Shown: positions 11,346 to 32,175, counted from the first letter of the stretch. The stretch is DNA of 32,175 nt from an uncultured Candidatus Saccharibacteria bacterium (GCA_964409985.1 CAYPEZ010000006.1:1-32175); one strand, 5' to 3'. Program-made: numbers and translations. The notes: generated from the letters alone by a model not told the origin.

Positions 11346-11370
11346 CATTCGTCTTCGCTTCTTACTTAAT

Positions 11371-11396
11371 ACACCCGAAAGGGTGTTTTAAGTTTT
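11371..11396 (+). terminator. Intrinsic terminator after the cyt b5-domain gene; overlaps the stop of the convergent small gene
   Basis: acaccc-gaaa-gggtgt is followed by tttaagtttt. Confidence 0.65.
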
Positions 11397-11564: not shown

Positions 11565-11609
11565 ATATCTTTCAGTATACACCCGCACGACGGTGTATAC
11601 TTGGCGTTA

Positions 11610-11840: not shown

Positions 11841-11841
11841 C

Positions 11842-12444
11842 CTAGAGCTTTTCAATCCCGTCTAAAAGGGTTTCAAATATTGATGGAGTCACCTCTTCCT
11901 GAGAAAGGAGCGAGAGGAGAATCGTCCCATCTCTATTTTCAGCAAAAGCCCAGTCAAAATACTTTCCTTCGACAATCCCTGTTGCATGTCTGACGACAGT
12001 GAAGGTCACTCCAGAGGGATTAGTGTATTCACTTGTTGTTGCCGAAGCAAGGAATCCTCCCATCCGAAGCGCATCCATCACAGCCGGGATTGTCCGCCCA
12101 TCACTTGTACGCTCAAAGAGTACAGAACCACGAGAAACACGGGACACCGACCCGCTGATGTACTCATTGAGTGAAAAATAGAACGCCTTGGGAACGATCT
12201 GAAGACTGGAATCATCTGGGAAAATACGGTGCGGAAGAATGCAATATTCTGATGGCACCGAAAAACGAAATCCGTACGTAGGTGTTTCAAATGTCGGATC
12301 GCCAAATGTACACTCACGCAATGATTGGATCTGGCGGTCTGCCATAATCCATGGATAGGAGAGTGTTTCTGTATGCCACATCCACCCAACACAGAGGAAA
12401 AGGAGTGTCACACTTGCGCTCGCCCATGGATGTGTTTTCAACAT
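11842..12444 (-). CDS. Hypothetical exported or membrane-anchored protein
   Basis: About 200-aa ORF with an N-terminal hydrophobic segment ASASVTLLFLCVGWMW. ATG 12453 has GAAGGG directly abutting it. ATG 12444 has the same element at a workable spacing and is preferred. No family was recognised. Confidence 0.6.
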   Translation of the reverse strand: MLKTHPWASASVTLLFLCVGWMWHTETLSYPWIMADRQIQSLRECTFGDPTFETPTYGFRFSVPSEYCILPHRIFPDDSSLQIVPKAFYFSLNEYISGSVSRVSRGSVLFERTSDGRTIPAVMDALRMGGFLASATTSEYTNPSGVTFTVVRHATGIVEGKYFDWAFAENRDGTILLSLLSQEEVTPSIFETLLDGIEKL

Positions 12445-12534
12445 TGTAACCATCCCTTCATCGTAACATATTCACATAAAAGCCGTATCCCAGCGGTGTA
12501 TTTGCGATATACTAAAGACTGACAATGAACATCT

Positions 12535-14976: not shown

Positions 14977-15004
14977 CTAATAAGGTTCGTGGTAAACTAT
15001 ACAC

Positions 15005-16171
15005 ATGCCACGAAAACTATCTCCAAAAAACAAGAAAGACTTTGCTGCCCTTGCACTTACCATTCACAAATCGCTTAACGGAAAGATCAGCATAGCTCCA
15101 AAGAAAAAAATACGTTCGCGGGATGATCTTGCTGTCTTTTACACCCCAGGAGTCGGTGCAGTCTCTACGTTTCTTTCAAAAAATAAGGAAAAGACCAAAG
15201 AGTATACGCTTAAAGGAAATGCTGTTGCCGTCGTTTCTGACGGATCAGCAGTTTTAGGCCTCGGTAACATAGGTCCAGAAGGGGCCTACCCCGTCATGGA
15301 GGGCAAGGCAATGCTCTTCAAGGCACTTGCAGATATTGATGCAGTGCCAATCCTCCTCTCAACACAAAATCCTGATGAAATTGTCGCAGCAGTGAAGGCA
15401 ATTGCCCCAACATTTGGAGGAATTAATCTTGAAGATATCGCTGCGCCAAAATGTTTTGAGATTGAGCGAAAACTTCAGGAGGCTCTTGATATTCCCGTCC
15501 TTCACGATGATCAGCATGGGACAGCAATGGTCGTCCTTGCGGGACTCATCAATGCACTCAAGGTCGTAAAGAAATCTCCACACAAAATTCGTGTTGCAAT
15601 TTCAGGGGCGGGAGCCGCGGGGGCAGCCATTGCATTCTTTTTGAAAGCATACGGTATCACAGAGATTCTCGTTGTCGACAGAGTGGGTGTCATCTACAAA
15701 ACTCGCCCGGACCTCAACCCTGAAAAACGTAAACTCGCCGAAGAAACAAACCCTCACAATGTTGGTGGAGGCCTTGCAGATGCGATGCGGGGAGCGGATG
15801 TCTTTATTGGCGTGTCCTCTGCAGGACTTGTCACCGAAGAGATGGTGAGAGGCATGGCACCACGTGCGATTGTTTTTTCGCTCGCAAATCCTGTTCCCGA
15901 GATCATGCCTGATGTTGCACTCAATGCCGGAGCAATGGTGGTCGCCACAGGACGATCCGACTTCCCCAATCAAGTCAATAACTCTCTCGGTTTCCCTGGA
16001 ATCTTTCGTGGCGCTCTCGACAATGGGGTAACACGAATCACTGATCTCATGCTGGTTCAGGCAGCAAAGAATCTCGCCTCACTCGTCAAAAAACCCACGG
16101 CAACAAATATCATGCCAGGGCCTCTCGATAAAAAAGCAGTGAGCGCAGTTGCTCGTGCGATCAGGAGTTAG
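15005..16171 (+). CDS. NAD(P)-dependent malic enzyme (short, MaeB-N-terminal/YtsJ type)
   Basis: DDLAVFYTPGVGAVS; VAVVSDGSAVLGLGNIGPEGAYPVMEGKAMLFK; FGGINLEDIAAPKCFEIERKL; IPVLHDDQHGTAMVVLAGLINAL; Rossmann motif ISGAGAAGAAIA; FSLANPVPEI; NNSLGFPGIFRGALD. Confidence 0.93.
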   Translation: MPRKLSPKNKKDFAALALTIHKSLNGKISIAPKKKIRSRDDLAVFYTPGVGAVSTFLSKNKEKTKEYTLKGNAVAVVSDGSAVLGLGNIGPEGAYPVMEGKAMLFKALADIDAVPILLSTQNPDEIVAAVKAIAPTFGGINLEDIAAPKCFEIERKLQEALDIPVLHDDQHGTAMVVLAGLINALKVVKKSPHKIRVAISGAGAAGAAIAFFLKAYGITEILVVDRVGVIYKTRPDLNPEKRKLAEETNPHNVGGGLADAMRGADVFIGVSSAGLVTEEMVRGMAPRAIVFSLANPVPEIMPDVALNAGAMVVATGRSDFPNQVNNSLGFPGIFRGALDNGVTRITDLMLVQAAKNLASLVKKPTATNIMPGPLDKKAVSAVARAIRS

Positions 16172-16532
16172 CCCTGTGATCCTCCGATTTTTTCGAAAAG
16201 TGTTCAACAAACAAATTGCTTGTTCTCTCTTTTTCTGCGGCAAGTAGATCTCTGAGCTCACAAAGATTATCTAGTGCAGCGTTGTACCCATCCGTGCCAT
16301 CATAAAGCGTGCCGTCTAAACGCTCTCCTTCCACAACGAGCTTCTCAACCTCGGAATGATAGCCATCAATACTTCCTGCGTATTCGGAACTTTCGTGGTC
16401 ATACATTCCCTCAATTTGTCCATTCACTTCAGCGTATTTTTCCTTCATTCGGCGAACAAGATCATCAAAATACTCCTGGGTGTGTTCTGGGTTTGAAGGA
16501 CTTACATTTTCTTTGTACGACTCGTGTTTCAT
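16161..16532 (-). CDS. Hypothetical small acidic protein (123 aa)
   Basis: ATG start 6 nt after the stop of the upstream 86-aa gene. The protein is strongly acidic with helix-prone composition and no TM or signal sequence. The 3' end overlaps the convergent malic-enzyme gene by 11 nt. No family was recognised. Confidence 0.55.
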   Translation of the reverse strand: MKHESYKENVSPSNPEHTQEYFDDLVRRMKEKYAEVNGQIEGMYDHESSEYAGSIDGYHSEVEKLVVEGERLDGTLYDGTDGYNAALDNLCELRDLLAAEKERTSNLFVEHFSKKSEDHRANS

Positions 16533-16538
16533 ATATTT

Positions 16539-16799
16539 CTAGTGTACTCGTGCAAGTATTCCTTGCAAGCGGTGTATTTCACTCTTTATGAGTTGATATT
16601 TCTCATCCACCAGAGGACCCAGCTCCCCAGCGTCTCTGAGGGCAACCTCAACGCTCTGTAATCGTTCTAAAATCTCCCGAATCATGCCAAACTCTTTAGA
16701 AGAGTCGTCAATCTCAGCTGCCTCTTCAAGAACCCCATCAAGGGCATCCATATTGACGGGAGAACCTTCTGGATTGAGTGAAGACACCCCTTCTTTCAT
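16539..16799 (-). CDS. Hypothetical small acidic, helix-prone protein (86 aa)
   Basis: ATG preceded by AAGGGGG. TACAAT lies 8 nt upstream of the start. Composition is acidic and Leu-rich. No family was recognised. Confidence 0.55.
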   Translation of the reverse strand: MKEGVSSLNPEGSPVNMDALDGVLEEAAEIDDSSKEFGMIREILERLQSVEVALRDAGELGPLVDEKYQLIKSEIHRLQGILARVH

Positions 16800-16821
16800 A
16801 CCCCCTTATTGTACTCTTCTC

Positions 16822-16865
16822 AAAAAGGAAAAGAAAAGAGCCTAGATTCCGTAGAATCTAGGCTC
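16822..16865 (-). terminator. Strong intrinsic terminator ending the two-gene exported module
   Basis: gagcctagattc-cgta-gaatctaggctc is a perfect 12-bp stem (16838-16865). On the minus strand it is followed by ttttcttttccttttt. Confidence 0.9.
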
Positions 16866-16885
16866 TCGATCAGTGAAGGAACATT

Positions 16886-18133
16886 TTATTGCTTTTGTAT
16901 ACCCTTTTCCATTGTTGCGAACGCGTTCGAGGTGACCCCCGTTCCCGCTTTCTGGCGAAGGAACACCACGGTGAGCTCGGGCGTCCAGTCGTTTGTGGCG
17001 GTACCACTCGACCTGCCCAGAGTACCAGTCACAGATCCGATCGCCTCTCCCAGAGGGCCACCCGCACCTGGAGCAATACTCCAGCCTCGCCCCGTCGTCG
17101 CAAGGGTCGCATGCATGATGGTTGCCTTGCGGCTCATGACCATCAGGAGTGTTTCGTCCGTGCGCAGATACTGTCCGACTTGCGCCGCACGAATACGGAG
17201 CTCATCGACAGTGACCATATGAGCTTCCTTGCCTGCCGCTTGAACGCTCACCGAGGCGAGACACTCATAGGTTCCTTGGTCGGGAACCCTATTGGCTACC
17301 GCTGCGACGATCTTGGCACTCCCACGTTCCTTGCGGAGACCAGGAAAACCGGACATGGTCGTCATCGTCGGAAAGACATCTTTGGCCACAAAGAGCTGCT
17401 TGCCCTTATAGACCTCGATGTCTCCTCCTGTAGATCCACATGACTCCAGAATGGAGTACAGGTAGTCCACGAAGCATGTAGCACATTCTGCAATGACGGG
17501 CGCTGGAGCAAGTGACGGCGTCGACGGCGGGACGAGCATGACATTCAAATTCTTGTCATGGCTGTCGATCTTGAGGTCGACATTTCCCGCATTCGAGACA
17601 TTGCCTGTGTTGGAGACGTTGCCACTCGAATTATTCGTCGAGTTGCCGCTCCCCGAGACACTCTGCGACTGGCTCGAATTTCCACTTCCATTCATGGATT
17701 GGGACTGATTCGAGTTTCCACTCCCAGTAATAGACTGTGATTGGTCCTGGTTGGAATTCCCACTACCAGTCACTGCTGCTGAGGAATTGGAAGTCTGCTG
17801 CTGAGTCTGCCCTTGATGCTGACTCGCAGAGGAATTCGAAGTCGAATTCCCGCTGTTGCTCACAGACCCGCCTGTCGCGGAAGCATTGCCCCCTCCACCA
17901 CCATAAGCCACAGGATTTGCTGTGACCGTAGTGGTATTCGAAGCATTCCCTCCAGCACCACCTTGTCCGCCTTGCGGCTGATTGATGGTCTGACTCGGAA
18001 TCGTCGTGCAGTTGAAGCAACTGCCGGACTGATCGATGACCTGAGGCGTCGGTTGGCTTCCTCCTGTTGCATGCGCAACAGAAGCAGCACACATGAGTAC
18101 GGCCACGAGGACCGTTTTTCCCTTCATCTTCAT
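16886..18133 (-). CDS. Secreted protein: signal peptide, G/S/N/Q low-complexity region with GSGNSxQSQS-type tandem repeats, and an unassigned C-terminal domain of about 225 aa
   Basis: The ORF opens at TTG 18163, which overlaps the upstream stop as TTGA. ATGs follow at 18139, 18133 and 18127, and AAAGGGG sits 6 nt before 18133. The signal peptide is MKMKGKTVLVAVLMCAASVAHA|TGG. The low-complexity region spans about 17573-17980. The C-terminal domain contains ECATCFVDYLYSILESCG and YECLAS. No family was recognised. Confidence 0.75.
   Translation of the reverse strand: MKMKGKTVLVAVLMCAASVAHATGGSQPTPQVIDQSGSCFNCTTIPSQTINQPQGGQGGAGGNASNTTTVTANPVAYGGGGGNASATGGSVSNSGNSTSNSSASQHQGQTQQQTSNSSAAVTGSGNSNQDQSQSITGSGNSNQSQSMNGSGNSSQSQSVSGSGNSTNNSSGNVSNTGNVSNAGNVDLKIDSHDKNLNVMLVPPSTPSLAPAPVIAECATCFVDYLYSILESCGSTGGDIEVYKGKQLFVAKDVFPTMTTMSGFPGLRKERGSAKIVAAVANRVPDQGTYECLASVSVQAAGKEAHMVTVDELRIRAAQVGQYLRTDETLLMVMSRKATIMHATLATTGRGWSIAPGAGGPLGEAIGSVTGTLGRSSGTATNDWTPELTVVFLRQKAGTGVTSNAFATMEKGIQKQ
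17576..17773 (-). repeat. In-frame tandem coding repeats (36-nt then 18-nt period)
   Basis: VTGSGNSNQDQSQS / ITGSGNSNQSQS / MNGSGNSSQSQS / VSGSGNSTNNSS / GNVSNT / GNVSNA / GNVDLK. Confidence 0.85.
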
Positions 18134-18159
18134 CTTCATCCCCTTTACTTGTTTGAGGT

Positions 18160-19500
18160 TCAAAAAAGATCGAGGGAAGGAGATTGCTCCCCTTTCCTCA
18201 CCGTTCCATCAGGAAGGCATACAAGTGCCATTCCTTTATACTCAACATCCGGTGTTTGCCGGCAAATGTCTTCTGGCGAAGATGCTGTGACCATTGCTCC
18301 ACCAAGGACCGTGAAGGTTGCCTTGGGGGTTAGATTTCGCATTCTTTCGTCGACAGGACACAATCCATCACATGCGAGAGTTCGCCTTTCATAGGAAGGC
18401 GAACCAGAATTCGGTTGAGTGGGCGCGCAAGAGGCGTCACACGAGGGACTTGCGTCGGAGAGTGGAGCTCCCGAGACGCAGCCGGTCGTGGCGCAGTCTT
18501 GGGGCAGTCTCATTGGGACGCAGGGTCCTGTGTTGCATGTGGGTGGATCTGGTGGGGGGATCACCTTTGCCTCAATAGGCACTGGTGGAGGTCCCTCCGC
18601 TTTCCGTTCGACGAGAAGTGCGTAGTTACAGCACATGACTGGCATGCTTAGGGTCATGATAATGCGCATAGGCACACCATCAATAACCTCACGTCTTTCG
18701 TGTCTATAAACAACGACCATGTCTCCGTCACCAGGAGTGAATGCGACTCGCGTATTGGGATAGACTTTTTTCTTCCCCAACATGTCGCCAATCACTTCTC
18801 CTTTTTCGAGATCCCTTGCTACTTCCTCATTGGCGTTGATCTTTCGGAGAAGCTCCTTACGATCAGCTTCAGTCAACTGAGGAAAACGCTTAAGCGCTTC
18901 CTCGGGGCTGACATCGCATCCAAGAGGATCAGTGCCCCGATATTTCCACTCAGTGTATTCACCTTGGGAGGCGATACCCTGGTTGGAGCGAAATACCGGA
19001 ACTACTCTATTGACCTCAGCACGAGACGCAAAATGAACCGGTGTAGAGATCTGCTCTCCGCAAGCATCAGTCAGCTCAAGTCTCTGCCCAGGATAAATGA
19101 GGTCAGGATTCTTGATGTCGTTTTTGGTCGCAACGTTCTGCCAATCGTTAGGACAAATCGTCGACAACCAATCGCCTTCTTCCACAACGTACTCAAGAAC
19201 ACTGTCGCTCTTAAGCACAACCGGAGTGACTTGCGCCACCTCGGACTTCTTGGAAGGAAGTTTGTGACTTCCCTCGTTTATGGCCATCTGTTCTGACGCA
19301 TCGACGAGCGTTGGCTCGCGCAGAGTCTTCTGAACAGTGAGCCAAACCAAGCTCAATGCCACAAGCACCAGAAGAGTGAAAGCGATGATGGCTTTGGAGC
19401 CAATCACAACCCTCTCAACTGGAACATCACGCAGCTCGGGATCGATGTCAGGAATGACATCTCCGAGTTTCTCTGTCTTTGGAACTTTTTCGTTTTCCAC
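18160..19500 (-). CDS. Signal-anchored protein with a LysM domain, an unassigned central domain, a Pro-rich linker and a Cys-rich C-terminal domain
   Basis: GTG start with AAAAGGGG about 7 nt upstream. TM AIIAFTLLVLVALSLVWLTV. The LysM-like region YVVEEGDWLSTICPNDWQNVATKNDIKNPDLIYPGQRLEL lies at about 19072-19194. PPPVPIEAKVIPPPDPP is followed by about 13 Cys in about 115 aa (TCNTGPC...DCATTGC...SCDASC...ACDGLC...). Confidence 0.78.
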   Translation of the reverse strand: MENEKVPKTEKLGDVIPDIDPELRDVPVERVVIGSKAIIAFTLLVLVALSLVWLTVQKTLREPTLVDASEQMAINEGSHKLPSKKSEVAQVTPVVLKSDSVLEYVVEEGDWLSTICPNDWQNVATKNDIKNPDLIYPGQRLELTDACGEQISTPVHFASRAEVNRVVPVFRSNQGIASQGEYTEWKYRGTDPLGCDVSPEEALKRFPQLTEADRKELLRKINANEEVARDLEKGEVIGDMLGKKKVYPNTRVAFTPGDGDMVVVYRHERREVIDGVPMRIIMTLSMPVMCCNYALLVERKAEGPPPVPIEAKVIPPPDPPTCNTGPCVPMRLPQDCATTGCVSGAPLSDASPSCDASCAPTQPNSGSPSYERRTLACDGLCPVDERMRNLTPKATFTVLGGAMVTASSPEDICRQTPDVEYKGMALVCLPDGTVRKGEQSPSLDLF

Positions 19501-19579
19501 GAGTATCCCCTTTTAAGCGTTTTGGGTTTTACAAAATCAACAAACAGTCTGGTCTCGAAACTACCAGAAAATTGGCTTC

Positions 19580-19607
19580 TGTCAAGTTATCTTCCGTTCA
19601 AGATAAC
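19580..19607 (-). promoter_or_regulatory. Candidate promoter -35 (TTGACA on the minus strand) abutted by a perfect 8-bp inverted repeat GTTATCTT-N6-AAGATAAC
   Basis: Plus-strand tgtcaa at 19580-85. The inverted-repeat arms are 19586-93 and 19600-07. The element lies between the upstream terminator and the GTG start at 19500. The -10 is weak (TAGTTT at 16-nt spacing). Confidence 0.3.
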
Positions 19608-19608
19608 G

Positions 19609-19649
19609 CAAAAAAACACCCCCGGAAGCGCATGCCTCCGAGGGTGTTG
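19609..19649 (-). terminator. Intrinsic terminator after the 232-aa exported-protein gene
   Basis: The minus-strand RNA cacccucggagg-caugcg-cuuccgggggug forms 12 bp including 2 G-U pairs, followed by uuuuuuu. Confidence 0.85.
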
Positions 19650-19671
19650 AGTGAATCTATCGTGGCGCTAT

Positions 19672-20370
19672 TTATGGACGTTTTTTAAGAAGGATAAGCC
19701 CAAAACCAACCGCCAAGAGACCGAGTGCGATTTCGACAAAATGGAACTCTCGATTGACTGTTTCAAGGATCACTCCGTGTGTGCGAAGAGTTTCCGACAT
19801 GCTCCCTACTGAAGCCGAACGAGCAGGAAACCCGAGCTCAGCTTTTTCCATCGGACACCCAAAGGAGCCGGATGAGTGGTATCGTGTTACTCCCTTTCCC
19901 ATATCTTTTGGTGTCATATCAGGTGCACCCCCCATCACATGACCACCGGGGTGGCAGGTAAACGTAAGGTCAACATCAGCATTCTCAATAGTACCGAAAA
20001 TACGGTAGGAGAGGACGGTTGCTTGTGTAGGGTAAAAGAGTGAAGTGTACGCACCTGGCTGTCCCCACACACCCGTGATGTCTTGGGTCCTTTTCTGCCC
20101 GCTAGCCGAAATTTCAAGCTTGAGTGAACTTTCTAATCCTAGTACTGGAGTGCCACTTGAGGCTGTGGGTGAAGACAGTTTTTGGACACGCAAATCTAAT
20201 CCTGACCGATCATCTACCACTACCGGCTCTCCCTGACTCCCAATAGTGAATTGATAATATTGCCCTCCTATCTCAAAGACTCCGTGCTCATGAGCACTTG
20301 CCGTGGTCCCAAATGAGACGAGAGAGGCAAAAAGAAGGAGTCCCCCTGCTAACATTCGATGCTTCATCAT
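19672..20370 (-). CDS. Hypothetical exported protein with a C-terminal TM anchor; the predicted mature N-terminus begins HEHG
   Basis: Signal peptide MMKHRMLAGGLLLFASLVSFGTTASA|HEHGVF. The C-terminus IALGLLAVGFGLILLKKRP is a TM with a basic tail. An internal FTCHPGGHVMGG motif is present. No family was recognised. Confidence 0.7.
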   Translation of the reverse strand: MMKHRMLAGGLLLFASLVSFGTTASAHEHGVFEIGGQYYQFTIGSQGEPVVVDDRSGLDLRVQKLSSPTASSGTPVLGLESSLKLEISASGQKRTQDITGVWGQPGAYTSLFYPTQATVLSYRIFGTIENADVDLTFTCHPGGHVMGGAPDMTPKDMGKGVTRYHSSGSFGCPMEKAELGFPARSASVGSMSETLRTHGVILETVNREFHFVEIALGLLAVGFGLILLKKRP

Positions 20371-25006: not shown

Positions 25007-25618
25007 TTATTCCAAGATGCCGTCGAGGTTGACATCGTAGAGGATCGCCTCAGCTACCAAACGATAATCAATGAGTTCTTCTTTGTTGAGCCAGAGGTCA
25101 ATTTCACGCTTTGCCTCCCCTGCTTCATCTGAACAGTGCACGAGATTGCGGACGGCACGGTCATCAACAGTAGAAAGCGCATAAGAGTCCATTGTAAAGT
25201 CGCCACGAATAGTTCCAACATCACTTGTTGAAGGCTCTGTCCCGCCGACAAGTTTCTTCACAACTGTTACCGCTTGATTCCCCTCAAGGGCCATGACAAC
25301 GACGGGTCCCGATGTCATGAAGCCTGCAAGAGCTCGGATAATATCTTTTCCATACTCGACCGGCTCTTTCTCAATTTTCATACCGGCTTCTTTCAGATTG
25401 GCAACGATATTGTTCCCCTTTTTTAAGAACCACGCCTCATCTTTGTTGTAGTGATCCCAAATTTTCTTTTCATCAAGAACTGCCATTTTCATGGATACAA
25501 TCTTGAGACCTGCACGTTCAAATCGCTTGATAATTTCTCCAATAAGACCTCGCTGCACTGCATCGGGCTTAAGAATAACAAACGTGCGCTCCTTCTTTGG
25601 GTGAGGGTGGACTGCCAT
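25007..25618 (-). CDS. ndk: Nucleoside-diphosphate kinase, long form (about 30-aa internal insertion plus a C-terminal extension)
   Basis: RTFVILKPDAVQRGLIGEIIKRFERAGLKIV, FMTSGPVVVMALEG, TIRGDF and NLVHCSD (catalytic His). The ORF opens at TTG 25639; ATG 25618 is preferred. Confidence 0.9.
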   Translation of the reverse strand: MAVHPHPKKERTFVILKPDAVQRGLIGEIIKRFERAGLKIVSMKMAVLDEKKIWDHYNKDEAWFLKKGNNIVANLKEAGMKIEKEPVEYGKDIIRALAGFMTSGPVVVMALEGNQAVTVVKKLVGGTEPSTSDVGTIRGDFTMDSYALSTVDDRAVRNLVHCSDEAGEAKREIDLWLNKEELIDYRLVAEAILYDVNLDGILE

Positions 25619-25651
25619 AATGTCCAAAATATAGCACAAAATAGCCTATAT

Positions 25652-28516
25652 TCAAGAGGCAGTTGACGTTGGAGAGGATATTGATGAACGAACTGCTGGT
25701 TGAGTCTGCTGGGAGGCTGCGGGTTTCTGTGCGAGGACACTTGCGCTTGCGTACTTTGCGAGAATAATTTCGTCCACGGCGTGACGATCCTGTCCATATT
25801 TAAGATATGAAAGCGTTTTTATGTTTTCTACTTGCGAAGGTTCTCCTGGGCGAATATCGGGAGTGACGATATTAAATGGCGTTGAGGGAACACCGTTTAC
25901 CAACATTTTAACGTACGCATTACGATTATCGAGTGACATGATATCTTTTGCGGTAAATGTGGGTGAAAATTGTTTCTCAAGGAACTCAGCGTCTTCTGTC
26001 CCCACACGAAATGTCACCATATTCCCTACGTTACCAAAGACACTGTCCCTGATGCCCTCCTCGAGTTGAGCAAGAAACTGGTGAGCGACAGTGAGCGAGA
26101 GTCCGTATTTTCGAGCCTCAGAGAGTATGGCTGAGATGGAATCTGTCGTGACATTTTGGAATTCATCGATATAGAGATAAAAGGGTGGGAGCTGTTTCCC
26201 ATACGAATCGACGCGAGAGAGAGCAGCCATGAGAATCTTCCCCACGAGGATAAGACCAATGAGATTCGCATTGATGTCTCCGAGCTTCCCTTTCGCAAGA
26301 TTGACGAGGAGAATTTTGCGATTATCCATGAGATCTCTGAAGTTGAATGAGCTTTTCTCCTGGGCAATAATTGGACGCATGATATCGTTCGACAAGAAGA
26401 CGTCGAATTTGTTGGTGATATAAGGCACCATGTTCGCAAGTCCTGATTCTCCACTCGTCTTCTCCGCGATCTCTCGCCAGAATTGGACGACAATCGGATT
26501 TTTGCATTTGGAGAGCTTCAACGCGCGGAAATTCTTGTCTGCGAGGACACGGGAGATCTCAAGGACGGTGTTTCCTGTCTCAGGATCATCCATGACGAGC
26601 ATGGTGGCATTTCGAAAATACTGTTCGAATGCAGGACCCATCGACTCGGGAACTGCCGCATAGAGTTTCTTGAAAATCGAGAGGAGCTCATTGACGACGA
26701 AGATCTTCTGCTGCGGATCGCGCACATCATATTCCAGCATATTGAGCCCGAAGGGGCGTGGCGCATAGCTCGGGTCAAAGTAAATCACATCATCAATGCG
26801 CTCTTTTGGAATCTGCGCAAGAATATCTTGGACATCAGTCCCGTGCGGGTCGATAAAACACGCACCGTCTCCCCTCATAATGTCATCGATAATCATGCGC
26901 TGAAGGAGCTTGGACTTTCCGGTCCCCGTCTGTCCTATGACATACATATGGCGCAAACGATCGATAGGGCCGATGCGGACCTCGGTCGCCTTCCCTTGAT
27001 AGGTATTAACCCCAATAAGCACACCATCAGAAACGGTATTTGTCGCAACAGGAGCGTAAGACGCTTTTGTCTGGGTCAACTGTGGGGCCACCTTGGCTTC
27101 AACCATTGCTGGGAAATGATATAACGTGGCGCACTCTTTGGTATTGAGATAGACAATTTCGTCCTCGTCAGCGAGTCGATATGTGAAATGATATAACAGT
27201 GATTCAAGGCGAGATTTTTCAACGTGGCGAAAACGAATCCTCCCCCCTTCTGCATCAGTAAACTGAGAGAAGGCTGATTCAAGATGATTCACAATCTCAC
27301 GAGTACGTTCATGCGTCCCCGCTGAAGCAACAACACGAAGATTCGCCATAACAATTTGCTTAGAGAGTTTTTCTTCAACTTTTTTGATTATTCCCTCGTC
27401 AACAGTTGGGGGTTTGTCTTCTTTTTTCTTTTGGTCTTGCGTAAATAATGTTTCACCAATCGTTCGAGAAAGAGATGAGAAAGTCGAGAGAGGTAGGTCG
27501 AGTGCTTCTCGGGGTTTCTTCTTTCCTTTCTTTATTGAAGAGAGTCCCTCTCGAAGACGTTCTGAAAATACGTGGCTTCCAGGAATAAGAACAAACTGTA
27601 TGGCCGCGCCTTCTCCGTCGCGCTCAAGATGAGTGAAGGCATTCAAAATGACTTTGATTGGATCTTCATCGTATTCAGAAGTCCGGATAGGAAGAACTGC
27701 GCTAGACGAACCCGTGCGTTCAAACAACGGATTTGTGAGTGTTGCGTAGGATCCAGAGGCTTTCCCAAATTCATTAAAGACATTGTAGTCATCGTGACGA
27801 AGTTCAGCTTTTGCGGTTGGAAAGAGTGCAAGCAAGTGTTTTACAAAGAGGTCTGAAAGATGCGCAGGAACTCCAATAAAAAATTCAATTGCGTGTGAAA
27901 AATTTGATTGAGCAATCTCAAATGTGAATACCACACCCTTCCCTTCACTTTTTCCGACAGCAAGAAGCCCGAGATAGAGCTGCTCCATGACCGACATAAG
28001 TGCTCGAATTTCTTCTGTTTTTTGTTTTACCTCTCCAGGAAGTAGTGGAGGAAGAGAAACAGCAAATGTATTCATGTGGAGTGCTCGGTCCAAGAGTTTT
28101 TCCTTTTCAAGTCCTGGAATCAGACCGCCGTGAGATATATATTCAACGAGCACACGATGAAAATCATCCTCAAGATGTGGACTCTGGAGCCCTCGGGAAA
28201 CCTTGATGGCGTATGCGATTCCCTTTTGTGCGAGATACTGATATAGCTCGCGCATTCGCTCTCGATGAGGGAGTGAGGAGAGATGCCCGACCGCACTTTC
28301 AAATTCCTGATTATCTGTAATGTGTTTTTCTTGAGAGGCGGCAACTTTGGCATACTCATGCACAACCTGAGAAACAGCAGCCTGAGTGTCCGTCGGGACA
28401 CTATCTTCCCATGACTGATGGTCAATCTCTGCAACTCGCGTGCGCAGGTACTTGAGCTCTTCTTCTGGAGAAGAAAAGGTCGGTAGTTCTATCCGCGCTC
28501 CCTCTTTAGGTTCCAC
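25652..28516 (-). CDS. Large soluble P-loop NTPase. The C-terminal half is VirD4/TraD/TrwB-like (T4 coupling-protein type, FtsK/HerA superfamily). The N-terminal ~500 aa are unassigned.
   Basis: GTG start. Walker A YVIGQTGTGKSKLL (about 26912-26938), then FIDPHGTD and IYFDPS...PFGLNMLE. Walker B YLYIDEFQNV (about 26152-26181). LTVAHQFLAQL...GNVGNMVTFRVGTEDAEFL. No TM segment occurs anywhere in the 954 aa. Confidence 0.8.
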   Translation of the reverse strand: MEPKEGARIELPTFSSPEEELKYLRTRVAEIDHQSWEDSVPTDTQAAVSQVVHEYAKVAASQEKHITDNQEFESAVGHLSSLPHRERMRELYQYLAQKGIAYAIKVSRGLQSPHLEDDFHRVLVEYISHGGLIPGLEKEKLLDRALHMNTFAVSLPPLLPGEVKQKTEEIRALMSVMEQLYLGLLAVGKSEGKGVVFTFEIAQSNFSHAIEFFIGVPAHLSDLFVKHLLALFPTAKAELRHDDYNVFNEFGKASGSYATLTNPLFERTGSSSAVLPIRTSEYDEDPIKVILNAFTHLERDGEGAAIQFVLIPGSHVFSERLREGLSSIKKGKKKPREALDLPLSTFSSLSRTIGETLFTQDQKKKEDKPPTVDEGIIKKVEEKLSKQIVMANLRVVASAGTHERTREIVNHLESAFSQFTDAEGGRIRFRHVEKSRLESLLYHFTYRLADEDEIVYLNTKECATLYHFPAMVEAKVAPQLTQTKASYAPVATNTVSDGVLIGVNTYQGKATEVRIGPIDRLRHMYVIGQTGTGKSKLLQRMIIDDIMRGDGACFIDPHGTDVQDILAQIPKERIDDVIYFDPSYAPRPFGLNMLEYDVRDPQQKIFVVNELLSIFKKLYAAVPESMGPAFEQYFRNATMLVMDDPETGNTVLEISRVLADKNFRALKLSKCKNPIVVQFWREIAEKTSGESGLANMVPYITNKFDVFLSNDIMRPIIAQEKSSFNFRDLMDNRKILLVNLAKGKLGDINANLIGLILVGKILMAALSRVDSYGKQLPPFYLYIDEFQNVTTDSISAILSEARKYGLSLTVAHQFLAQLEEGIRDSVFGNVGNMVTFRVGTEDAEFLEKQFSPTFTAKDIMSLDNRNAYVKMLVNGVPSTPFNIVTPDIRPGEPSQVENIKTLSYLKYGQDRHAVDEIILAKYASASVLAQKPAASQQTQPAVRSSISSPTSTAS

Positions 28517-28555
28517 TGGGCAATATTATATGACACCGGAGAGAAAACCCCAAGA

Positions 28556-30157
28556 CTATGTTCTTAACTGATCTTTCTTTTCTTTAAGAAGAGAGGAGAA
28601 GGAGTCAATCACATCAAGGGCAAGTTGGTACGGGGTTTCAATAATAAAGTCGAGGATAAAGACCATGACATTCGCATAATCAAATTTCCTGATAAGCCAC
28701 CTCCCCATAAGGACAATAGGGAGCGTCAGCACATCAACAAAGAATGCCCCCGCTTTCTCTGGCCCCCCAGAAAGAACCCATTGTTGTGCACGCACTCGAA
28801 TACGGTATCCAAAAAACGAGACAAGAACAAGGAAAAGGAGGAAGAAGCCGATCCCCAAAATGTTGAAATGGAGAGCAACGAGAACCTTTAAAATAATGAA
28901 GAGAATCGTAAGGAGAACCGCACCATAAAGCCCAAAGGCAATCTCTTTCAAGAGGGACGTTTTGGGAGCGGCAATAAAGATACGTTCTCGTTTCCCCCCA
29001 TCAACAATTCCATTGAGAAACTGTGCGACCCGCTCAGTATTTGCCTCCTTTGGGAACCTGACACCCATAGTGACCAAAAAAAGAAGAACAGGGTGAAAGA
29101 CAATATTAATAAGGAGAGGGATGGGGTTGATCCCTTTTTTTGCGATAAACATATCATACGGAACCTCAAGGCCAATGGCGAGTATGGTTTTTGTGGCAAA
29201 AATATACACAATCGCCTGAAGTGCGCTCCGAGAAATCCGTTTCTCTTCTTCGCGATATTTCCCCGAGAGAATAATGCGTGCCTCCCGTTCAATGTCTTCG
29301 TGGTGTGAAAGGAGCTTTTCCCGACCTTCTGGAGAAGGTTCTTTTTTGAGAGATTCGTATAAAATACGGTACGCTATGGCATCATTGCGAGACAGACCTA
29401 GAAGTTGATCGCCAATGGGTAAACCGATTTGTGCTGAAAGAAGTCGTTCATCTTGAGGAAAGGCCTGAGCAATTTCTTGGAGTGTTTGGTCATCTACGCC
29501 CCCTAGCCATGCGGGATAGCGCATAAGCCAAAGTCGATAAAAAAGTCCCGCAGGTTCACTTTGAAAGAGAGACCGCCACGAACAAAGATAGAGTTGAATT
29601 TCCCGTGTTTTTCCTGGGAATTGTTCTTCGATTACTACTCGCTCATCAAGCATTCGATAGAATGCGTGCACCATAGCTTCTTCACGAATCGTCGGAAACA
29701 AATATTCTTCAATCTCACTTGAGCAGAGGTGGAGCATGCGCTTTTTCCAGTGCCCACTGTTTGGGTGTTCCGGACAACGAACAGCAACAAGGTCAGCAAA
29801 ACGGAAAACTTTTGTAATGATGACATCAATGTCTTGGATGATACGCTCAGGAAATGTATCGTTTGGCAAATATCCCGCTCGGATGAGCTCAATAAGAAGC
29901 GCTTCAGCGATTTTCTCTCCCCGATAATCAAACATGAGCATGCGACGAAGCATGCGCTCAATCGCATTGCGTCGAAGAAGATGCTCGTCTTTATTATCAA
30001 CGGCGTAACGCACTTTTTCATAAAATAGTGCTGCCTTGGATGCGACTGCGCTTACTTTGAGCCTAGGTTCGCCATCACGAGCGATGAGCCGGTCTTCCCG
30101 TTCCTGATGAGATCGAAATTCCCCAAGTAGGGCCTCCATTTCAGGGTTTTTGAGCAT
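28556..30157 (-). CDS. Hypothetical polytopic membrane protein: a helical cytoplasmic N-terminal region of about 330 aa plus about 6 TM segments
   Basis: 533-aa ORF with ATG start. TM-like segments include AIVYIFATKTILAIGL, IPLLINIVFHPVLLFLVTMGV, FGLYGAVLLTILFIILKVLVAL, ILGIGFFLLFLVLVSFFGY, FFVDVLTLPIVLMG and VMVFILDFII. It lies 39 nt upstream of the ATPase gene. No family was recognised. Confidence 0.8.
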   Translation of the reverse strand: MLKNPEMEALLGEFRSHQEREDRLIARDGEPRLKVSAVASKAALFYEKVRYAVDNKDEHLLRRNAIERMLRRMLMFDYRGEKIAEALLIELIRAGYLPNDTFPERIIQDIDVIITKVFRFADLVAVRCPEHPNSGHWKKRMLHLCSSEIEEYLFPTIREEAMVHAFYRMLDERVVIEEQFPGKTREIQLYLCSWRSLFQSEPAGLFYRLWLMRYPAWLGGVDDQTLQEIAQAFPQDERLLSAQIGLPIGDQLLGLSRNDAIAYRILYESLKKEPSPEGREKLLSHHEDIEREARIILSGKYREEEKRISRSALQAIVYIFATKTILAIGLEVPYDMFIAKKGINPIPLLINIVFHPVLLFLVTMGVRFPKEANTERVAQFLNGIVDGGKRERIFIAAPKTSLLKEIAFGLYGAVLLTILFIILKVLVALHFNILGIGFFLLFLVLVSFFGYRIRVRAQQWVLSGGPEKAGAFFVDVLTLPIVLMGRWLIRKFDYANVMVFILDFIIETPYQLALDVIDSFSSLLKEKKDQLRT

Positions 30158-30247
30158 GTACGACTATTATACACGAGCTCACTCCTATTGATAACTTCGT
30201 CAAGGAACGCCATACTACCAATGGAAGTTCTGTACGGAGGACTGCCC

Positions 30248-30496
30248 ATGTCAGTATTTACTGCTCTTGTTGGCTGGCTCATAGGAACCATGGTTCCCTT
30301 GGCGCTTGCCGCTGGATGTCTTTGGGCAATTTTTGCGAAAGTTGTTCCAAGGATAGGCGAACTGTCCATGCATCAGACGTCAGGAGAAGAAATATATTTT
30401 GGACTTCTCTACGCAGCAGCCGCACTGGGATTGGCTTTCGTCGCAATCATTCTTGCTGCCTACGCCCTCGTGAGAAACTGGCGTATGTGGAAATAA
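30248..30496 (+). CDS. Hypothetical small membrane protein (3 TM-like segments)
   Basis: The ORF opens at TTG 30188. ATG 30248 has GGAGG 7 nt upstream and is preferred. The sequence is MSVFTALVGWLIGTMVPLALAAGCLWAIFAKV...FGLLYAAAALGLAFVAIILAAYALV. A weak hairpin follows (30502-30525). Confidence 0.55.
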   Translation: MSVFTALVGWLIGTMVPLALAAGCLWAIFAKVVPRIGELSMHQTSGEEIYFGLLYAAAALGLAFVAIILAAYALVRNWRMWK

Positions 30497-30525
30497 ATAT
30501 TCACCCTCGGCTTCTGTCGGGGGTG

Positions 30526-31299
30526 TTATGTTGTCAGAATCTCTGGCTTACCTTCAGTGATAAGAATTGTGTGCTCAAAATGAGCTGCGAGTGATCCATC
30601 TTGAGTCACGATGGTATACCCATCTTCGAGTGTTTCGATATATCGCTTTCCTAGGGTAAACATGGGTTCAATGGCCAAAATCATTCCTGGCTTTAGGAGC
30701 GTCCCCTCGCCTTTTTTCCCATAATTTGGAACATATGGATCTTCGTGTACATGGTACCCAACACCATGACCCGCAAGCTCACGAATAACTCCGTATTTCT
30801 CTTTCTTCGCAACCGCCTCTACCGCTGCGCCTATATCTCCAGTGTGTGCTCCGCCACGGGCAGCAGCAATACCAGCCATGAGTGCTTCTTCAGTACGAGA
30901 TAGTAATTTTTGAAGACGCACGGAAATGTTCCCAACCGGAACAGAGATAGCCGCATCAGTAATCATTCCCTTGTGGGTGAGTCCAAGATCAAGCCCAACA
31001 ATATCCCCCTCTTGAAGTACGCGATTTCCAGGAATACCGTGAACGATTTCGTCATTCACTGAAATACAGATACTCGCTGGAAATGGTTCGTCAGCACCGT
31101 ATGGCTGATACCCTTTAAATGAGGGAATATCACCACCTGCTCTGATCATCTCTTCGGCAATCGTGTCCAGTTCTTGCGTCATTATCCCAGGCCGTACAGC
31201 TTCCCCTACAGCGCGGAGTACGCGCCCCAGTCGCTTCCCACTTTCTCGGAGAAGCTCAATCTCTGCGGGTGTTTTTACTGTAACTCCCATGCGGGACAT
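30526..31299 (-). CDS. map: Methionine aminopeptidase, type I
   Basis: KTPAEIELLRESGK, SVNDEIVHGIPG, GDIVGLDLG, HGVGYHVHEDP, MILAIEPM and HFEHTILIT. All five metal-ligand positions are present. Confidence 0.94.
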   Translation of the reverse strand: MSRMGVTVKTPAEIELLRESGKRLGRVLRAVGEAVRPGIMTQELDTIAEEMIRAGGDIPSFKGYQPYGADEPFPASICISVNDEIVHGIPGNRVLQEGDIVGLDLGLTHKGMITDAAISVPVGNISVRLQKLLSRTEEALMAGIAAARGGAHTGDIGAAVEAVAKKEKYGVIRELAGHGVGYHVHEDPYVPNYGKKGEGTLLKPGMILAIEPMFTLGKRYIETLEDGYTIVTQDGSLAAHFEHTILITEGKPEILTT

Positions 31300-31307
31300 A
31301 GATTTCG

Positions 31308-31925
31308 CTATCCTACCCTGTCATCTGGAAAAATGCGAGCAACGAGTTCTTTGTGGACCTCCTCGATTGGTCGTGTTCCATCAATCTCCAAAAAATCATA
31401 ATCTCTGTCTCTTTTGTAGTAGGCAATCGCAGGTCTCACATCAATATCAAACCATGAGAGACGTTTTTCAATTGATTCTGGTGTGTCGTCTTTTCTGCCT
31501 TCTCGTTTTGCACGGTCAAGAAGATGCTCTCGAGACCACCGACGCGGAACATTGAGATAGATCACTGTTGGTTGCTTTCGATTAAAAAATTTCATTGCAA
31601 GATCCAGATTTTGCGCCTCATTGAGCGAACGAGGTGATCCATCCAAAATAATATGTTCTTTGCCTTTCAAGTTTTTTATGAATGTATCTGCCCAAATCCA
31701 CATTGCCAAAAAATCCGGTTGACGGTCTCCAACATCTTGTGCGTGTTTTGCAATAGACGCAGCGTAATTATCAGTTTTTACAAAATCACGAAAATACTGA
31801 CCAGTCTGCATAATAAACACTGGGTGTTCCGCATCGCGCCGCTTGAGTTCCTCCTCGAGAAGGCGGACCTGCGTGCCCTTCCCCGATCCTGATGCCCCAA
31901 TGAAGATAAACGTTCGAAGTTCCAT
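31308..31925 (-). CDS. adk: Adenylate kinase (short form without a zinc-lid)
   Basis: P-loop FIGASGSGKGTQ, ILDGSPRSLNEAQ, RAKREGRKDDTPESIEKRL and AIAYYK. ATG 31925 (MELRTFIFIG) is preferred over TTG 31943. The gene lies directly upstream of map, as in many bacteria. Confidence 0.85.
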   Translation of the reverse strand: MELRTFIFIGASGSGKGTQVRLLEEELKRRDAEHPVFIMQTGQYFRDFVKTDNYAASIAKHAQDVGDRQPDFLAMWIWADTFIKNLKGKEHIILDGSPRSLNEAQNLDLAMKFFNRKQPTVIYLNVPRRWSREHLLDRAKREGRKDDTPESIEKRLSWFDIDVRPAIAYYKRDRDYDFLEIDGTRPIEEVHKELVARIFPDDRVG

Positions 31926-32175
31926 GTTTACACTATAACACAAGAGTGGTAGGATGCCTTGGTCGAAAAAGGAGAAAGGGTCAATGTTTCAGAAATCAGG
32001 TTCCTGGATACCACAAACGACGAACAATGTGCACTCCCAAAAGGATGATGCAAAACAATTCGAAGAGGGTCTCGCAAGGAATTTGCAGCAATGGACGAAG
32101 TCTCGTCAGCCAATATACCCAATGCAGCAAACGCAGCTACGCCCCCCGGGTCTCAAGAAGAGAACTTAATTACAG

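What the first reader, a model, noticed from the sequence alone, without database searches (positions are those of the whole stretch)
25652..30157. Orphan VirD4/TraD-like ATPase lacking its own membrane anchor, paired with an unassigned 533-aa polytopic membrane protein
Seen in the sequence:
- The two genes are co-directional and 39 nt apart, and ndk follows them.
- The C-terminal half of the ATPase has, in order, GQTGTGKSK, FIDPHG, IYFDPS..PFGLNMLE, YLYIDEFQNV and LTVAHQFLAQL..GNVGNMVTFRVG. I associate this pattern with TrwB/TraD/VirD4 coupling proteins and their HerA/FtsK relatives.
- Its N-terminal ~500 aa have no motif I can place, and the protein has no TM segment.
- The partner has a helical soluble region of about 330 aa and about 6 TM segments, with no recognisable family.
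- Nothing else in 32 kb looks like a relaxase, VirB4, VirB6, pilin, competence or phage-packaging gene.

Established knowledge: canonical type IV coupling proteins are anchored by their own N-terminal TM helices and work with a relaxosome and a VirB-type channel.

Inference: this may be a split architecture in which the membrane partner supplies the anchor or channel. It could form a minimal two-component nucleic-acid or protein translocation system, for DNA uptake or export in an organism dependent on salvaged nucleotides, or for another substrate.
Basis: partly seen in the sequence, partly recalled or inferred. Interest (0 to 1): 0.66.

Follow-up and report, generated by a model that had tools for sequence, protein, structure and literature searches.

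The report
Core CPR motor ATPase, incidental membrane neighbour
The ATPase is the local copy of a conjugation-type motor protein that nearly all ultra-small Patescibacteria carry and whose job is still unknown. The membrane protein beside it is an unrelated, patchily distributed gene that sits there in only one small family, so the two are not a conserved two-part machine.

Summary
The proposed pairing does not hold.

**The ATPase (25652-28516, minus strand)**
- It is soluble and belongs to the Patescibacteria-wide "orphan T4CP homologue" family, whose members carry PF26449 in a precomputed annotation.
- Its motor domain is TrwB/VirD4-like. The whole predicted structure matches VirB4 best.
- Its first ~135 residues are a separate small gene directly upstream in other lineages, so the conserved partner is already fused in.
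- It sits in an order-wide block, secY-adk-map-[X]-ATPase-ndk.

**The membrane protein (28556-30157)**
- It fills slot X in only 17 of the 29 genomes of this family.
- Elsewhere it occurs in about 30% of Patescibacteria and is not next to the ATPase.
- The ATPase is nearly universal without it.
- It matches no Pfam family and no PDB fold.

**Wider context**
- The genome has a monoderm-type T4SS cluster on another contig, plus a second T4CP-like paralogue.
- Published Tn-seq data in Southlakia score the probable orthologue, and its small upstream gene, as essential.

**Verdict:** a known kind of gene whose function is unknown; the two-component translocon idea is not supported.

The parts
25652..28516 (-). 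954-aa soluble T4CP/VirB4-like ATPase. This is the fused Saccharimonadia form of the Patescibacteria-wide family whose members carry PF26449.
   Evidence: ORF. Pfam TraG-D_C, TrwB_AAD_bind and T4SS-DNA_transf. More than 8000 homologues at 50-97% identity, most carrying precomputed PF26449. A full-length copy is present in about 50 of 61 relatives. Foldseek matches VirB4/TrwK at 5e-16 and TrwB at 4e-9.
28112..28516 (-). Residues 1-135: a helical module that is a separate small gene directly upstream of the ATPase in other Patescibacteria, and is fused here.
   Evidence: Phylum orthologues align only from profile position ~135. An HMM of residues 1-140 hits the 126-182-aa ORF immediately upstream of the ATPase in 8 of 10 distant loci, with E from 2e-15 to 1.5e-5.
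27077..28099 (-). Residues ~140-480: the family-specific alpha/beta N-domain, with no sequence match to a characterised domain.
   Evidence: Most of this domain is modelled at pLDDT 80-95; the loop at about 340-370 is below 60. It is found in 321 of 401 genomes of the order at E <= 1e-10. The whole-model Foldseek alignments to VirB4 span about 930 columns. hhalign against the genome's own VirB4 aligns only the Walker A region.
25742..27022 (-). Residues ~499-925: TrwB/VirD4-like P-loop motor. Walker A GQTGTGKS lies at 26912-26935 and Walker B YLYIDEF at 26159-26179. A helical insert spans residues 586-731.
   Evidence: K534, D784, E785, Q813 and R837 are invariant in 69 sequences. TrwB is the only PDB match by sequence, at 8e-5. 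TrwB reaches TM 0.50-0.56 normalised to the target. The insert has pLDDT below 55.
28556..30157 (-). 533-aa membrane protein of an uncharacterised Patescibacteria family: a helical cytoplasmic N-domain of ~305 aa followed by 5-6 TM helices. It is a lineage-specific occupant of the slot between map and the ATPase.
   Evidence: ORF. No family match. 849 cluster representatives. AF2 pLDDT 89 and pTM 0.86. No PDB fold match, best E 0.48. Distribution.
28525..28530 (-). TATAAT 8 nt upstream of the ATPase GTG start, with no Shine-Dalgarno sequence: a probable own leaderless-type promoter.
   Evidence: Sequence. Genome-wide, -10-like hexamers peak 6-11 nt before ATG starts and there is no SD peak.
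30166..30171 (-). TATAAT 8 nt upstream of the membrane-protein ATG. It is preceded by TTATCA at 17-nt spacing.
25007..25639 (-). ndk. It is the conserved downstream neighbour of the ATPase across the order, and has its own TATATT at 25628-25633.
   Evidence: Pfam NDK 1.2e-40. Across the other families of the order (one genome each), it lies within about 1 kb downstream of the ATPase in 18 of 32 genomes; it is also adjacent in the window's own genus. Promoter scan.
30526..31943 (-). map and adk, the end of the secY-adk-map block that precedes the slot.
   Evidence: Pfam. The same order adk-map-X-ATPase is seen in G006, G019 and G060.

Best explanation
**What the ATPase is.** The 954-aa gene is a vertically inherited core gene, not part of a mobile element. 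It is the fused, local form of the Patescibacteria-wide soluble T4CP/VirB4-like ATPase. It has three modules:
- a small helical partner module (residues 1-135), which is a separate upstream gene in other lineages;
- a family-specific alpha/beta N-domain (residues ~140-480);
- a TrwB/VirD4-like P-loop motor with intact Walker A, Walker B and arginine residues.

**Where it sits.** It occupies a conserved housekeeping block, secY-adk-map-[variable slot]-ATPase-ndk.

**What the membrane protein is.** The 533-aa protein is an unrelated Patescibacteria membrane protein of unknown function. In one family it happens to occupy the variable slot. It is not an obligate partner, anchor or channel for the ATPase.

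**Mechanism (inferred, not shown).** The ATPase forms an NTP-driven ring, like other FtsK-HerA/VirD4/VirB4 proteins. It reaches the membrane peripherally through its N-domain and small partner module, not through TM helices of its own. In this class it most likely serves the chromosomal monoderm-type T4SS, which has no coupling protein in its own cluster, by energising or feeding it. A role independent of the T4SS is almost as likely.
For: **Family and domains**
- Family assignment and conservation of catalytic residues.
- No TM helix.

**Distribution and synteny**
- A full-length copy is in about 50 of 61 relatives, and every genome also has a shorter paralogue.
- The N-domain is in 321 of 401 genomes of the order.
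- The ATPase is present in 57 of 59 sampled phylum genomes.
- Synteny secY-adk-map-X-ATPase-ndk.
- GC content is flat across the region and the window has no integrase or relaxase.

**The real conserved partner**
- The small upstream partner gene is homologous to residues 1-140 in 8 of 10 distant loci.

**The membrane protein is not a partner**
- It is confined to 17 of 29 genomes of one family as a neighbour, and is unlinked elsewhere.
- The slot is filled by unrelated genes where it is absent.
- hhalign finds no relation between the membrane protein and the ATPase or the T4SS membrane protein.

**T4SS context**
- The genome's own T4SS cluster on C4 has VirB4 (P-loop_TraG, 1.5e-26) and PrgI/VirB3, but no T4CP.

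**Literature**
- PMC12102498 counted 5,713 VirD4-type homologues in 2,918 of 3,026 Patescibacteria assemblies. Only 148 lie near virB4.
- PMC10633639 Table S1 scores SEML1_0142 (1019 aa, core, Patescibacteria-enriched) and the 139-aa gene directly upstream, SEML1_0141, as essential. SEML1_0293 is non-essential, and its Pfam coordinates match the C24-type paralogue shifted by 372 residues.
Against: - No experiment or expression data for this genome.
- The link to the T4SS is inferred only from co-presence and from the lack of a T4CP in the cluster.
- T4CP homologues occur in more assemblies (2,918) than the Patescibacteria-clade VirB4 does (2,407 of 3,026). At least some of them therefore work without a T4SS.
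- The VirB4-like reading of the N-domain rests on Foldseek alignments with low TM-scores (0.24-0.29). The model itself has pTM 0.51.
- Orthology of SEML1_0142 with this gene was inferred from length, domain coordinates and elimination. The sequences were not aligned.
- Adjacency of the membrane protein and the ATPase has persisted across two genera in which the membrane proteins are only 33-37% identical. A lineage-specific functional link therefore cannot be excluded.
Confidence: 0.6

Rival explanations
1. The ATPase is a cytoplasmic housekeeping motor that does not depend on the T4SS. It would be a ring translocase or remodeller acting on DNA, RNA or protein, working with its small helical partner. 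Its conserved place beside ndk and adk may reflect a role in handling salvaged nucleic acids.
For: - T4CP homologues are found in 96% of assemblies, against about 80% for VirB4, and only 148 of 5,713 lie near virB4.
- The gene sits in housekeeping synteny, with ndk within about 1 kb downstream in 18 of the 32 genomes from other families of the order.
- HerA, TdpA and the HerA-NurA complex are among the fold hits.
- The protein has no TM helix.
Against: - The genome already has a canonical FtsK.
- The best sequence and fold matches are to T4SS ATPases, not HerA.
- No nuclease partner of the NurA type was seen nearby.
- The ndk linkage may simply be inherited gene order, and it is broken in genera g2 and g4.
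Confidence: 0.3
2. One reading: the 533-aa membrane protein and the ATPase form a minimal two-component translocon, in which the membrane protein is the anchor or channel.
For: - The two genes are co-directional and 39 nt apart.
- They are adjacent or within 1.6 kb in 16 of the 17 family genomes that have the membrane protein, across two genera.
- The ATPase lacks a TM anchor.
- The membrane protein has conserved charged residues in or next to its first TM helix (K323, E331) and a large cytoplasmic domain.
Against: - 12 of the 29 family genomes, 30 of the 32 genomes from other families of the order, and about 70% of the phylum have the ATPase but not the membrane protein.
- In the 59 phylum genomes that have the membrane protein, the two genes are unlinked.
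- The slot is otherwise filled by unrelated genes.
- Each gene has its own -10 box.
- The conserved partner of the ATPase is the small helical protein, which is fused here.
- No membrane protein of about 533 aa sits next to the probable Southlakia orthologue.
Confidence: 0.06
3. The pair belongs to a mobile element or an anti-phage defence system with a HerA-like ATPase.
For: - PADLOC mad8 at 3e-17 and weak HerA hits.
- phrog_5156 matches the full length at 1e-69.
Against: - The PADLOC hits cover only the generic P-loop region.
- The gene is near-universal, single-copy and syntenic within a ribosomal/housekeeping block.
- There is no integrase, nuclease or Sir2 partner nearby.
- GC content is flat across the region.
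Confidence: 0.03

Closest known systems
Type IV coupling proteins (TrwB of R388, PDB 1E9R/1GKI; VirD4, TraD, Cagbeta)
   Same: - The P-loop motor is homologous. TrwB is the only PDB match by sequence (8e-5).
- Foldseek matches TrwB at 4e-9 with TM 0.50-0.56 normalised to TrwB.
- The Pfam families TraG-D_C, TrwB_AAD_bind and T4SS-DNA_transf all score above their cut-offs.
- A helical insert sits where the all-alpha domain lies.
   Different: - There is no N-terminal TM anchor.
- About 500 extra N-terminal residues are present.
- There is no relaxase and no linked T4SS genes.
- NCBIfam TraD/VirD4 equivalog scores are far below cut-off (47 against 366 bits).
- The gene is a chromosomal core gene of a whole phylum, not a plasmid or ICE gene.
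VirB4/TrwK (R388; PDB 7O42, 8RTB)
   Same: - It is the best whole-chain fold match (E 5e-16, about 930 aligned columns).
- Both are soluble two-domain proteins with an N-domain followed by a RecA-like C-domain.
- VirB4 is often fused to or paired with a small partner (VirB3). Here a small partner is fused too.
   Different: - There are no VirB4-type Pfam hits (AAA_10 only 14 bits; no CagE_TrbE_VirB).
- hhalign against the genome's own VirB4 aligns only the Walker A region.
- The small partner is a soluble helical protein, not a membrane VirB3.
- TM-scores are low (0.24-0.29).
'Orphan T4CP homologues' of Patescibacteria (PMC12102498); proteins carrying PF26449, called DUF8128 in earlier notes of this scan
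   Same: This gene is a member of that set. It has full-length homology at 50-97% identity to proteins carrying PF26449. It lies far from virB4, and there are about two copies per genome.
   Different: Nothing essential differs. The local features are the fusion with the small partner module and the neighbouring membrane protein.
Southlakia epibionticum SEML1_0141/SEML1_0142 (PMC10633639)
   Same: This is the probable orthologous pair. It consists of a 139-aa gene 13 nt upstream of a 1019-aa 'TraM recognition domain' protein, whose P-loop domain spans residues 381-800 and whose N-part is unassigned. Both were scored essential.
   Different: - The two genes are unfused there.
- No ndk gene and no 533-aa membrane protein sit beside it.

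Membership tests
Type IV coupling protein (VirD4/TrwB/TraD) | P-loop nucleotide-binding domain homologous to TrwB, with Walker A and Walker B motifs | tested here: met
   Pfam hits score above their cut-offs. TrwB is the only PDB match by sequence. Foldseek matches TrwB at E 4e-9. K534, D784 and E785 are invariant.
Type IV coupling protein (VirD4/TrwB/TraD) | N-terminal transmembrane anchor | tested here: not met
   No TM segment was found in the hydropathy scan. The only hydrophobic 19-mer lies inside the motor domain.
Type IV coupling protein (VirD4/TrwB/TraD) | All-alpha domain inserted in the nucleotide-binding domain | tested here: inconclusive
   A helical insert at residues 586-731 lies between Walker A and Walker B, but it is modelled at pLDDT 34-55.
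Type IV coupling protein (VirD4/TrwB/TraD) | Genetic linkage to a relaxase and/or a mating-pair-formation (T4SS) gene set | tested here: not met
   The window has no such gene. The T4SS cluster is on a different contig, C4. In the literature only 148 of 5,713 homologues lie near virB4.
Type IV coupling protein (VirD4/TrwB/TraD) | Score above the curated equivalog cut-offs for TraD/VirD4 (NCBIfam) | tested here: not met
   The best score is 47.4 bits for TIGR03743, against a cut-off of 366.
VirB4 | Sequence match to VirB4-type models (CagE_TrbE_VirB, AAA_10, P-loop_TraG) | tested here: not met
   None appears. AAA_10 scores 14.2 bits. TIGR00929 scores 19 bits against a cut-off of 643. The genome's true VirB4 is on C4.
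VirB4 | Two-domain architecture, with an N-terminal domain followed by a RecA-like C-terminal domain | tested here: inconclusive
   TrwK/VirB4 gives the top Foldseek hits over about 930 columns (E 5e-16). TM-scores are only 0.24-0.29 and the model has pTM 0.51.
Patescibacterial T4CP-like ATPase carrying PF26449 | Full-length homology, including the N-domain, to proteins carrying PF26449 | tested here: met
   The listed homologues, mostly carrying precomputed PF26449, have 50-97% identity, nearly all over 95-100% of the query. The PF26449 model itself is not in the local Pfam copy, so no direct score could be obtained.
Patescibacterial T4CP-like ATPase carrying PF26449 | A small helical partner encoded directly upstream, or fused to the ATPase | tested here: met
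   An HMM of residues 1-140 matches the immediately upstream 126-182-aa ORF in 8 of 10 distant loci.
FtsK/SpoIIIE | FtsK_SpoIIIE motor domain above cut-off, with alpha and gamma domains | tested here: not met
   The score is 14.3 bits against a cut-off of 24. A canonical FtsK is on contig C5.
Any known membrane-protein family (for the 533-aa protein) | Match to a curated sequence family or a solved fold | tested here: not met
   - Pfam gave no hit for the protein itself, and no family was matched by more than 3 of 68 relatives, even at E <= 1.
- NCBIfam gave only a spurious 17.7-bit hit.
- A PDB profile search found nothing relevant.
- The best Foldseek PDB match had E 0.48 and TM 0.14, even though the model has pLDDT 89.

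The most novel reading that the evidence does not exclude
The ATPase, with its fused small partner, would be an essential Patescibacteria-specific motor that imports host-derived nucleic acid. It would act either at the base of the T4SS or on its own. Its long-standing position beside ndk and adk would reflect direct channelling of salvaged nucleotides. In this family, the 533-aa membrane protein would have been recruited as an accessory membrane dock.
Probability: 0.08. Interest if true: 0.8.

Novelty: new member of a known kind. Interest (0 to 1): 0.33.

Why it matters
**The open question.** About two T4CP-like ATPases per genome are among the most conserved genes of unknown role in Patescibacteria. 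How these bacteria take nucleic acids and other building blocks from their hosts is also unresolved.

**What this window contributes.**
- It does not supply the missing membrane partner. The neighbouring membrane protein is a local accident of gene order.
- The real conserved partner is a small helical protein, which is fused to the ATPase in this order.
- The published statement that the Southlakia T4CP homologue is dispensable probably concerns the other paralogue (inference from published tables). The orthologue of this gene, and its small partner, appear to be scored essential.

**A secondary point.** The membrane protein belongs to an unannotated family of at least 849 sequence clusters. 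Its predicted structure is confident and matches no solved structure.

Tried and rejected
**Family and fold searches on the membrane protein.** None gave a usable result.
- Pfam, NCBIfam, PADLOC and PHROGs.
- A PDB profile search.
- Foldseek against PDB.

**Tests for hidden homology.**
- hhalign of the membrane-protein profile against the ATPase profile, and against the 849-aa T4SS membrane protein, found no relation.
- hhalign of the ATPase profile against the genome's own VirB4 aligned only the Walker A region. Against the 211-aa gene between VirB4 and PrgI it found nothing.

**Search for conserved neighbours of the membrane protein.** I examined 24 loci across the phylum. The only recurring pattern was dnaE-thrS upstream of it, in three genomes from other orders of the class. 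That is housekeeping synteny.

**Attempt to locate the Southlakia genome.** I looked for it by coordinates among 401 genomes of the order and did not find it.

- The PF26449 model is not in the local Pfam library.
- Model coordinates could not be exported, so the N-domain could not be searched on its own.

**Readings considered and rejected.** The defence-system and mobile-element readings were rejected on distribution and synteny.
Full report
**1.

The window is contig C6 of an 870-kb, 64-contig genome. Names attached to homologues place it in Patescibacteria. Earlier unchecked notes of this scan place it in Saccharibacteria.

The minus strand carries, in order:
- adk (31308-31943);
- map (30526-31299);
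- a 533-aa ORF (28556-30157);
- a 954-aa ORF (25652-28516, GTG start);
- ndk (25007-25639).

The two focal genes are 39 nt apart.

The ATPase passes the Pfam cut-offs for TraG-D_C, TrwB_AAD_bind and T4SS-DNA_transf, each only narrowly. It falls far below every NCBIfam TraD/VirD4/VirB4 equivalog cut-off. It has no TM segment.

The 533-aa protein has a helical N-part of about 305 aa followed by 5-6 TM helices. It has no family in any library. None of the 20 other window ORFs scanned is a conjugation, pilus, competence or packaging gene.

**2. What the ATPase is**

*Distribution.*
- It has more than 8000 homologues, named only from Patescibacteria. The 120 listed have 50-97% identity, nearly all over the full length, and most carry precomputed PF26449.
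- Across 69 sequences the C-terminal half is extremely conserved. Walker A K534, Walker B D784/E785, Q813 and R837 are invariant.
- Among 61 relatives, about 50 have a full-length copy. Almost every genome also has a second, shorter paralogue that matches only residues ~505-920.
- In this genome the paralogue is a 624-aa protein on contig C24, next to a DUF4015 glycosyl hydrolase. That paralogue family is itself huge and conserved across the phylum.
- The N-domain alone is found in 321 of 401 genomes of the order.

*Structure.*
- By sequence, TrwB is the only solved relative.
- The AlphaFold model has mean pLDDT 74. The N-domain and P-loop core are mostly confident, and the helical insert at 586-731 is poor.
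- The whole model matches VirB4/TrwK best (E 5e-16, about 930 columns, TM 0.24-0.29). TrwB follows (E 4e-9, TM 0.50-0.56 normalised to TrwB), then HerA, TdpA and Cagbeta.
- At sequence level the genome's own VirB4 aligns only around Walker A.

In sum, the protein has a VirD4-like motor, and its overall layout resembles VirB4.

**3. The real conserved partner is already inside the protein**

Outside this order the orthologues are about 820-850 aa and align only from profile position ~135. I built an HMM from residues 1-140 and searched the ORFs around ten such distant orthologues. In eight, the 126-182-aa ORF immediately upstream matched, on the same strand with a gap of 1-62 nt, at E from 2e-15 to 1.5e-5.

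The first ~135 residues here are therefore a fused copy of a small soluble helical protein that is a separate gene elsewhere. I tested it independently.

**4. The membrane protein is not a conserved partner**

*In the window's family* (29 species, all searched):
- 17 genomes have the membrane protein.
- In 14 it is directly upstream of the ATPase.
- In 2 it lies within 1.6 kb.
- In 1 both genes sit at contig ends.
- The other 12 genomes keep the ATPase without it.

*In the order and the phylum:*
- In 32 other families of the order, 2 genomes have it. One has it on a different contig from the ATPase, and the other has no full-length ATPase at all.
- In an even sample of 201 genomes of the phylum, 60 have it.
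- In the 59 other than this genome, the ATPase is present in 57 but never adjacent. One case lies 2.3 kb away in the reverse order, against about 0.4 such cases expected by chance.

*What fills the slot elsewhere.* Where the membrane protein is missing, the position between map and the ATPase holds other genes:
- unrelated soluble proteins of 402 or 526 aa;
- MetRS;
- a 90-aa single-TM ORF.

*Its own neighbours.* In 24 loci across the phylum the membrane protein has no conserved neighbour. In three genomes from other orders of the class it follows dnaE-thrS.

*No hidden homology.* Profile comparison shows no relation to the ATPase or to the large T4SS membrane protein.

*Separate promoters.*
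- Each gene has a TATAAT box 8 nt before its start codon and no Shine-Dalgarno sequence.
- Genome-wide, -10-like hexamers peak 6-11 nt before ATG starts, and there is no SD peak.
- The 39-nt spacing is therefore weak evidence for co-expression.

**5. Context in the genome and in the literature**

*Gene order.* The order-wide arrangement is secY-adk-map-[variable slot]-ATPase-ndk-134 aa-beta-CASP. Of the 32 genomes from other families of the order, 18 have ndk within about 1 kb downstream of the ATPase. The window's own genus does too. In genera g2 and g4 it has moved 5-13 kb away.

*T4SS in this genome.* Contig C4 carries the monoderm-type Patescibacterial T4SS next to dnaA and dnaN. It includes the following:
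- VirB4 (P-loop_TraG, 1.5e-26);
- PrgI/VirB3;
- several unassigned ORFs with hydrophobic N-termini.

No T4CP lies in that cluster. The only T4CP-like genes in the genome are the C6 and C24 ones. A canonical FtsK is on C5.

*Survey of Patescibacteria (PMC12102498).*
- It counted 5,713 VirD4-type homologues in 2,918 of 3,026 assemblies, with only 148 near virB4.
- The Patescibacteria-clade VirB4 was found in 2,407 assemblies.
- The authors noted that the Southlakia homologue was not essential and may have been exapted.

*Southlakia Tn-seq (PMC10633639).* The tables list two such genes.
- SEML1_0293 is 921 aa, with PF10412 at 402-719, and is non-essential.
- SEML1_0142 is 1019 aa, with a P-loop domain at 381-800 and an unassigned N-part. 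It is a core, Patescibacteria-enriched gene scored essential at all three time points.
- SEML1_0142 is preceded at 13 nt by SEML1_0141, a 139-aa gene scored growth-defective at the first time point and essential at the two later ones.

The Pfam coordinates of SEML1_0293 equal those of the C24 paralogue shifted by 372 residues. SEML1_0141 plus SEML1_0142 fit the small-partner-plus-ATPase layout. I therefore infer, at about 85%, that the orthologue of the gene studied here is the essential one. This was not checked by alignment.

**6. Mechanism**

*Shown:*
- an intact, strongly conserved P-loop motor of the VirD4/TrwB type;
- a soluble protein;
- a conserved N-domain and small partner;
- vertical inheritance as a core gene;
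- no obligate link to the membrane protein.

*Inferred:*
- It forms a ring ATPase that reaches the membrane peripherally.
- In this class it most likely works with the T4SS, which lacks its own coupling protein.
- A T4SS-independent role is nearly as likely, because the family is more widespread than VirB4.
- The membrane protein is a separate Patescibacteria protein of unknown function. Its confident model (pLDDT 89) has no counterpart in the PDB.

**7. Novelty and score**

The ATPase is a new member of a family already counted in the literature and repeatedly seen in this scan. The two-component translocon reading is not supported. Three things remain of interest:
- the fusion with the small partner;
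- the probable essentiality of the orthologue;
- the unannotated membrane-protein family.

Interest is 0.33.

**Limits**
- No complex prediction was possible.
- PF26449 is not in the local Pfam copy.
- The N-domain could not be fold-searched on its own.

Noticed in passing
window 30188-30496 (+), hairpin at 30502-30525: A 102-aa ORF with about three hydrophobic stretches and a weak DUF2160 match. It lies between map and the membrane protein, converging on map and diverging from the membrane protein. A GC-rich hairpin after its stop codon could terminate both it and map. If the ORF is real, the membrane protein cannot be co-transcribed with map.
   Followed up: partly
whole genome (G000); examples at window 30166-30171, 28525-28530, 25628-25633: -10-like hexamers pile up 6-11 nt upstream of ATG starts. 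About 86 of 512 long ORFs show this, against a background of about 2-3 per position. There is no Shine-Dalgarno peak. This suggests widespread leaderless-type transcription and translation starts in this organism.
   Followed up: partly
G000 contig C4, about 8000-19800 (locus L009): A Patescibacterial monoderm-type T4SS cluster lies next to dnaN, dnaA and yidC. It holds VirB4 (600 aa), a 211-aa gene, PrgI/VirB3 (156 aa), an 849-aa protein with a hydrophobic N-terminus and several other ORFs with hydrophobic N-termini. The Southlakia T4SS cluster (SEML1_0006-0019) likewise starts just after dnaA-dnaN-recF.
   Followed up: partly
G000 contig C24, 3869-5743 (locus L010): A second T4CP-like ATPase of 624 aa without the N-domain, directly downstream of a DUF4015 glycosyl hydrolase. 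Its family is even more conserved than the focal one, at 55-78% identity across the phylum. It is probably the family of the non-essential SEML1_0293.
   Followed up: partly
window 25007-28516 and relatives: The ATPase-ndk neighbourhood is much better conserved than the membrane protein-ATPase one. Of the 32 genomes from other families of the order, 18 have ndk within about 1 kb downstream of the ATPase. Whether this reflects function or only inherited gene order is open.
   Followed up: partly
loci L012 (6734-8122 and 5001-6581) and L013 (4930-6138): In genus g2 genomes that lack the membrane protein, the slot upstream of the ATPase holds soluble proteins with no Pfam match. The 462-aa and 402-aa proteins share a C-terminal ...FTGNILPFGRLFNETFGRG.FRE.GHLQ... 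motif. The slot appears to be a hot spot of gene turnover.
   Followed up: no
window 25652-28516: phrog_5156, of unknown function, matches residues 197-923 at 1e-69. A family catalogued as phage-derived therefore contains this cellular Patescibacteria core gene, or phages of these bacteria carry it.
   Followed up: no
loci L032, L035, L038 (other orders of the class): In three genomes from other orders of the same class the membrane protein sits directly after dnaE-thrS. In two distant genomes (L001, L020) it lies a few kb from infC-rpmI-rplT, as it does in the window.
   Followed up: partly
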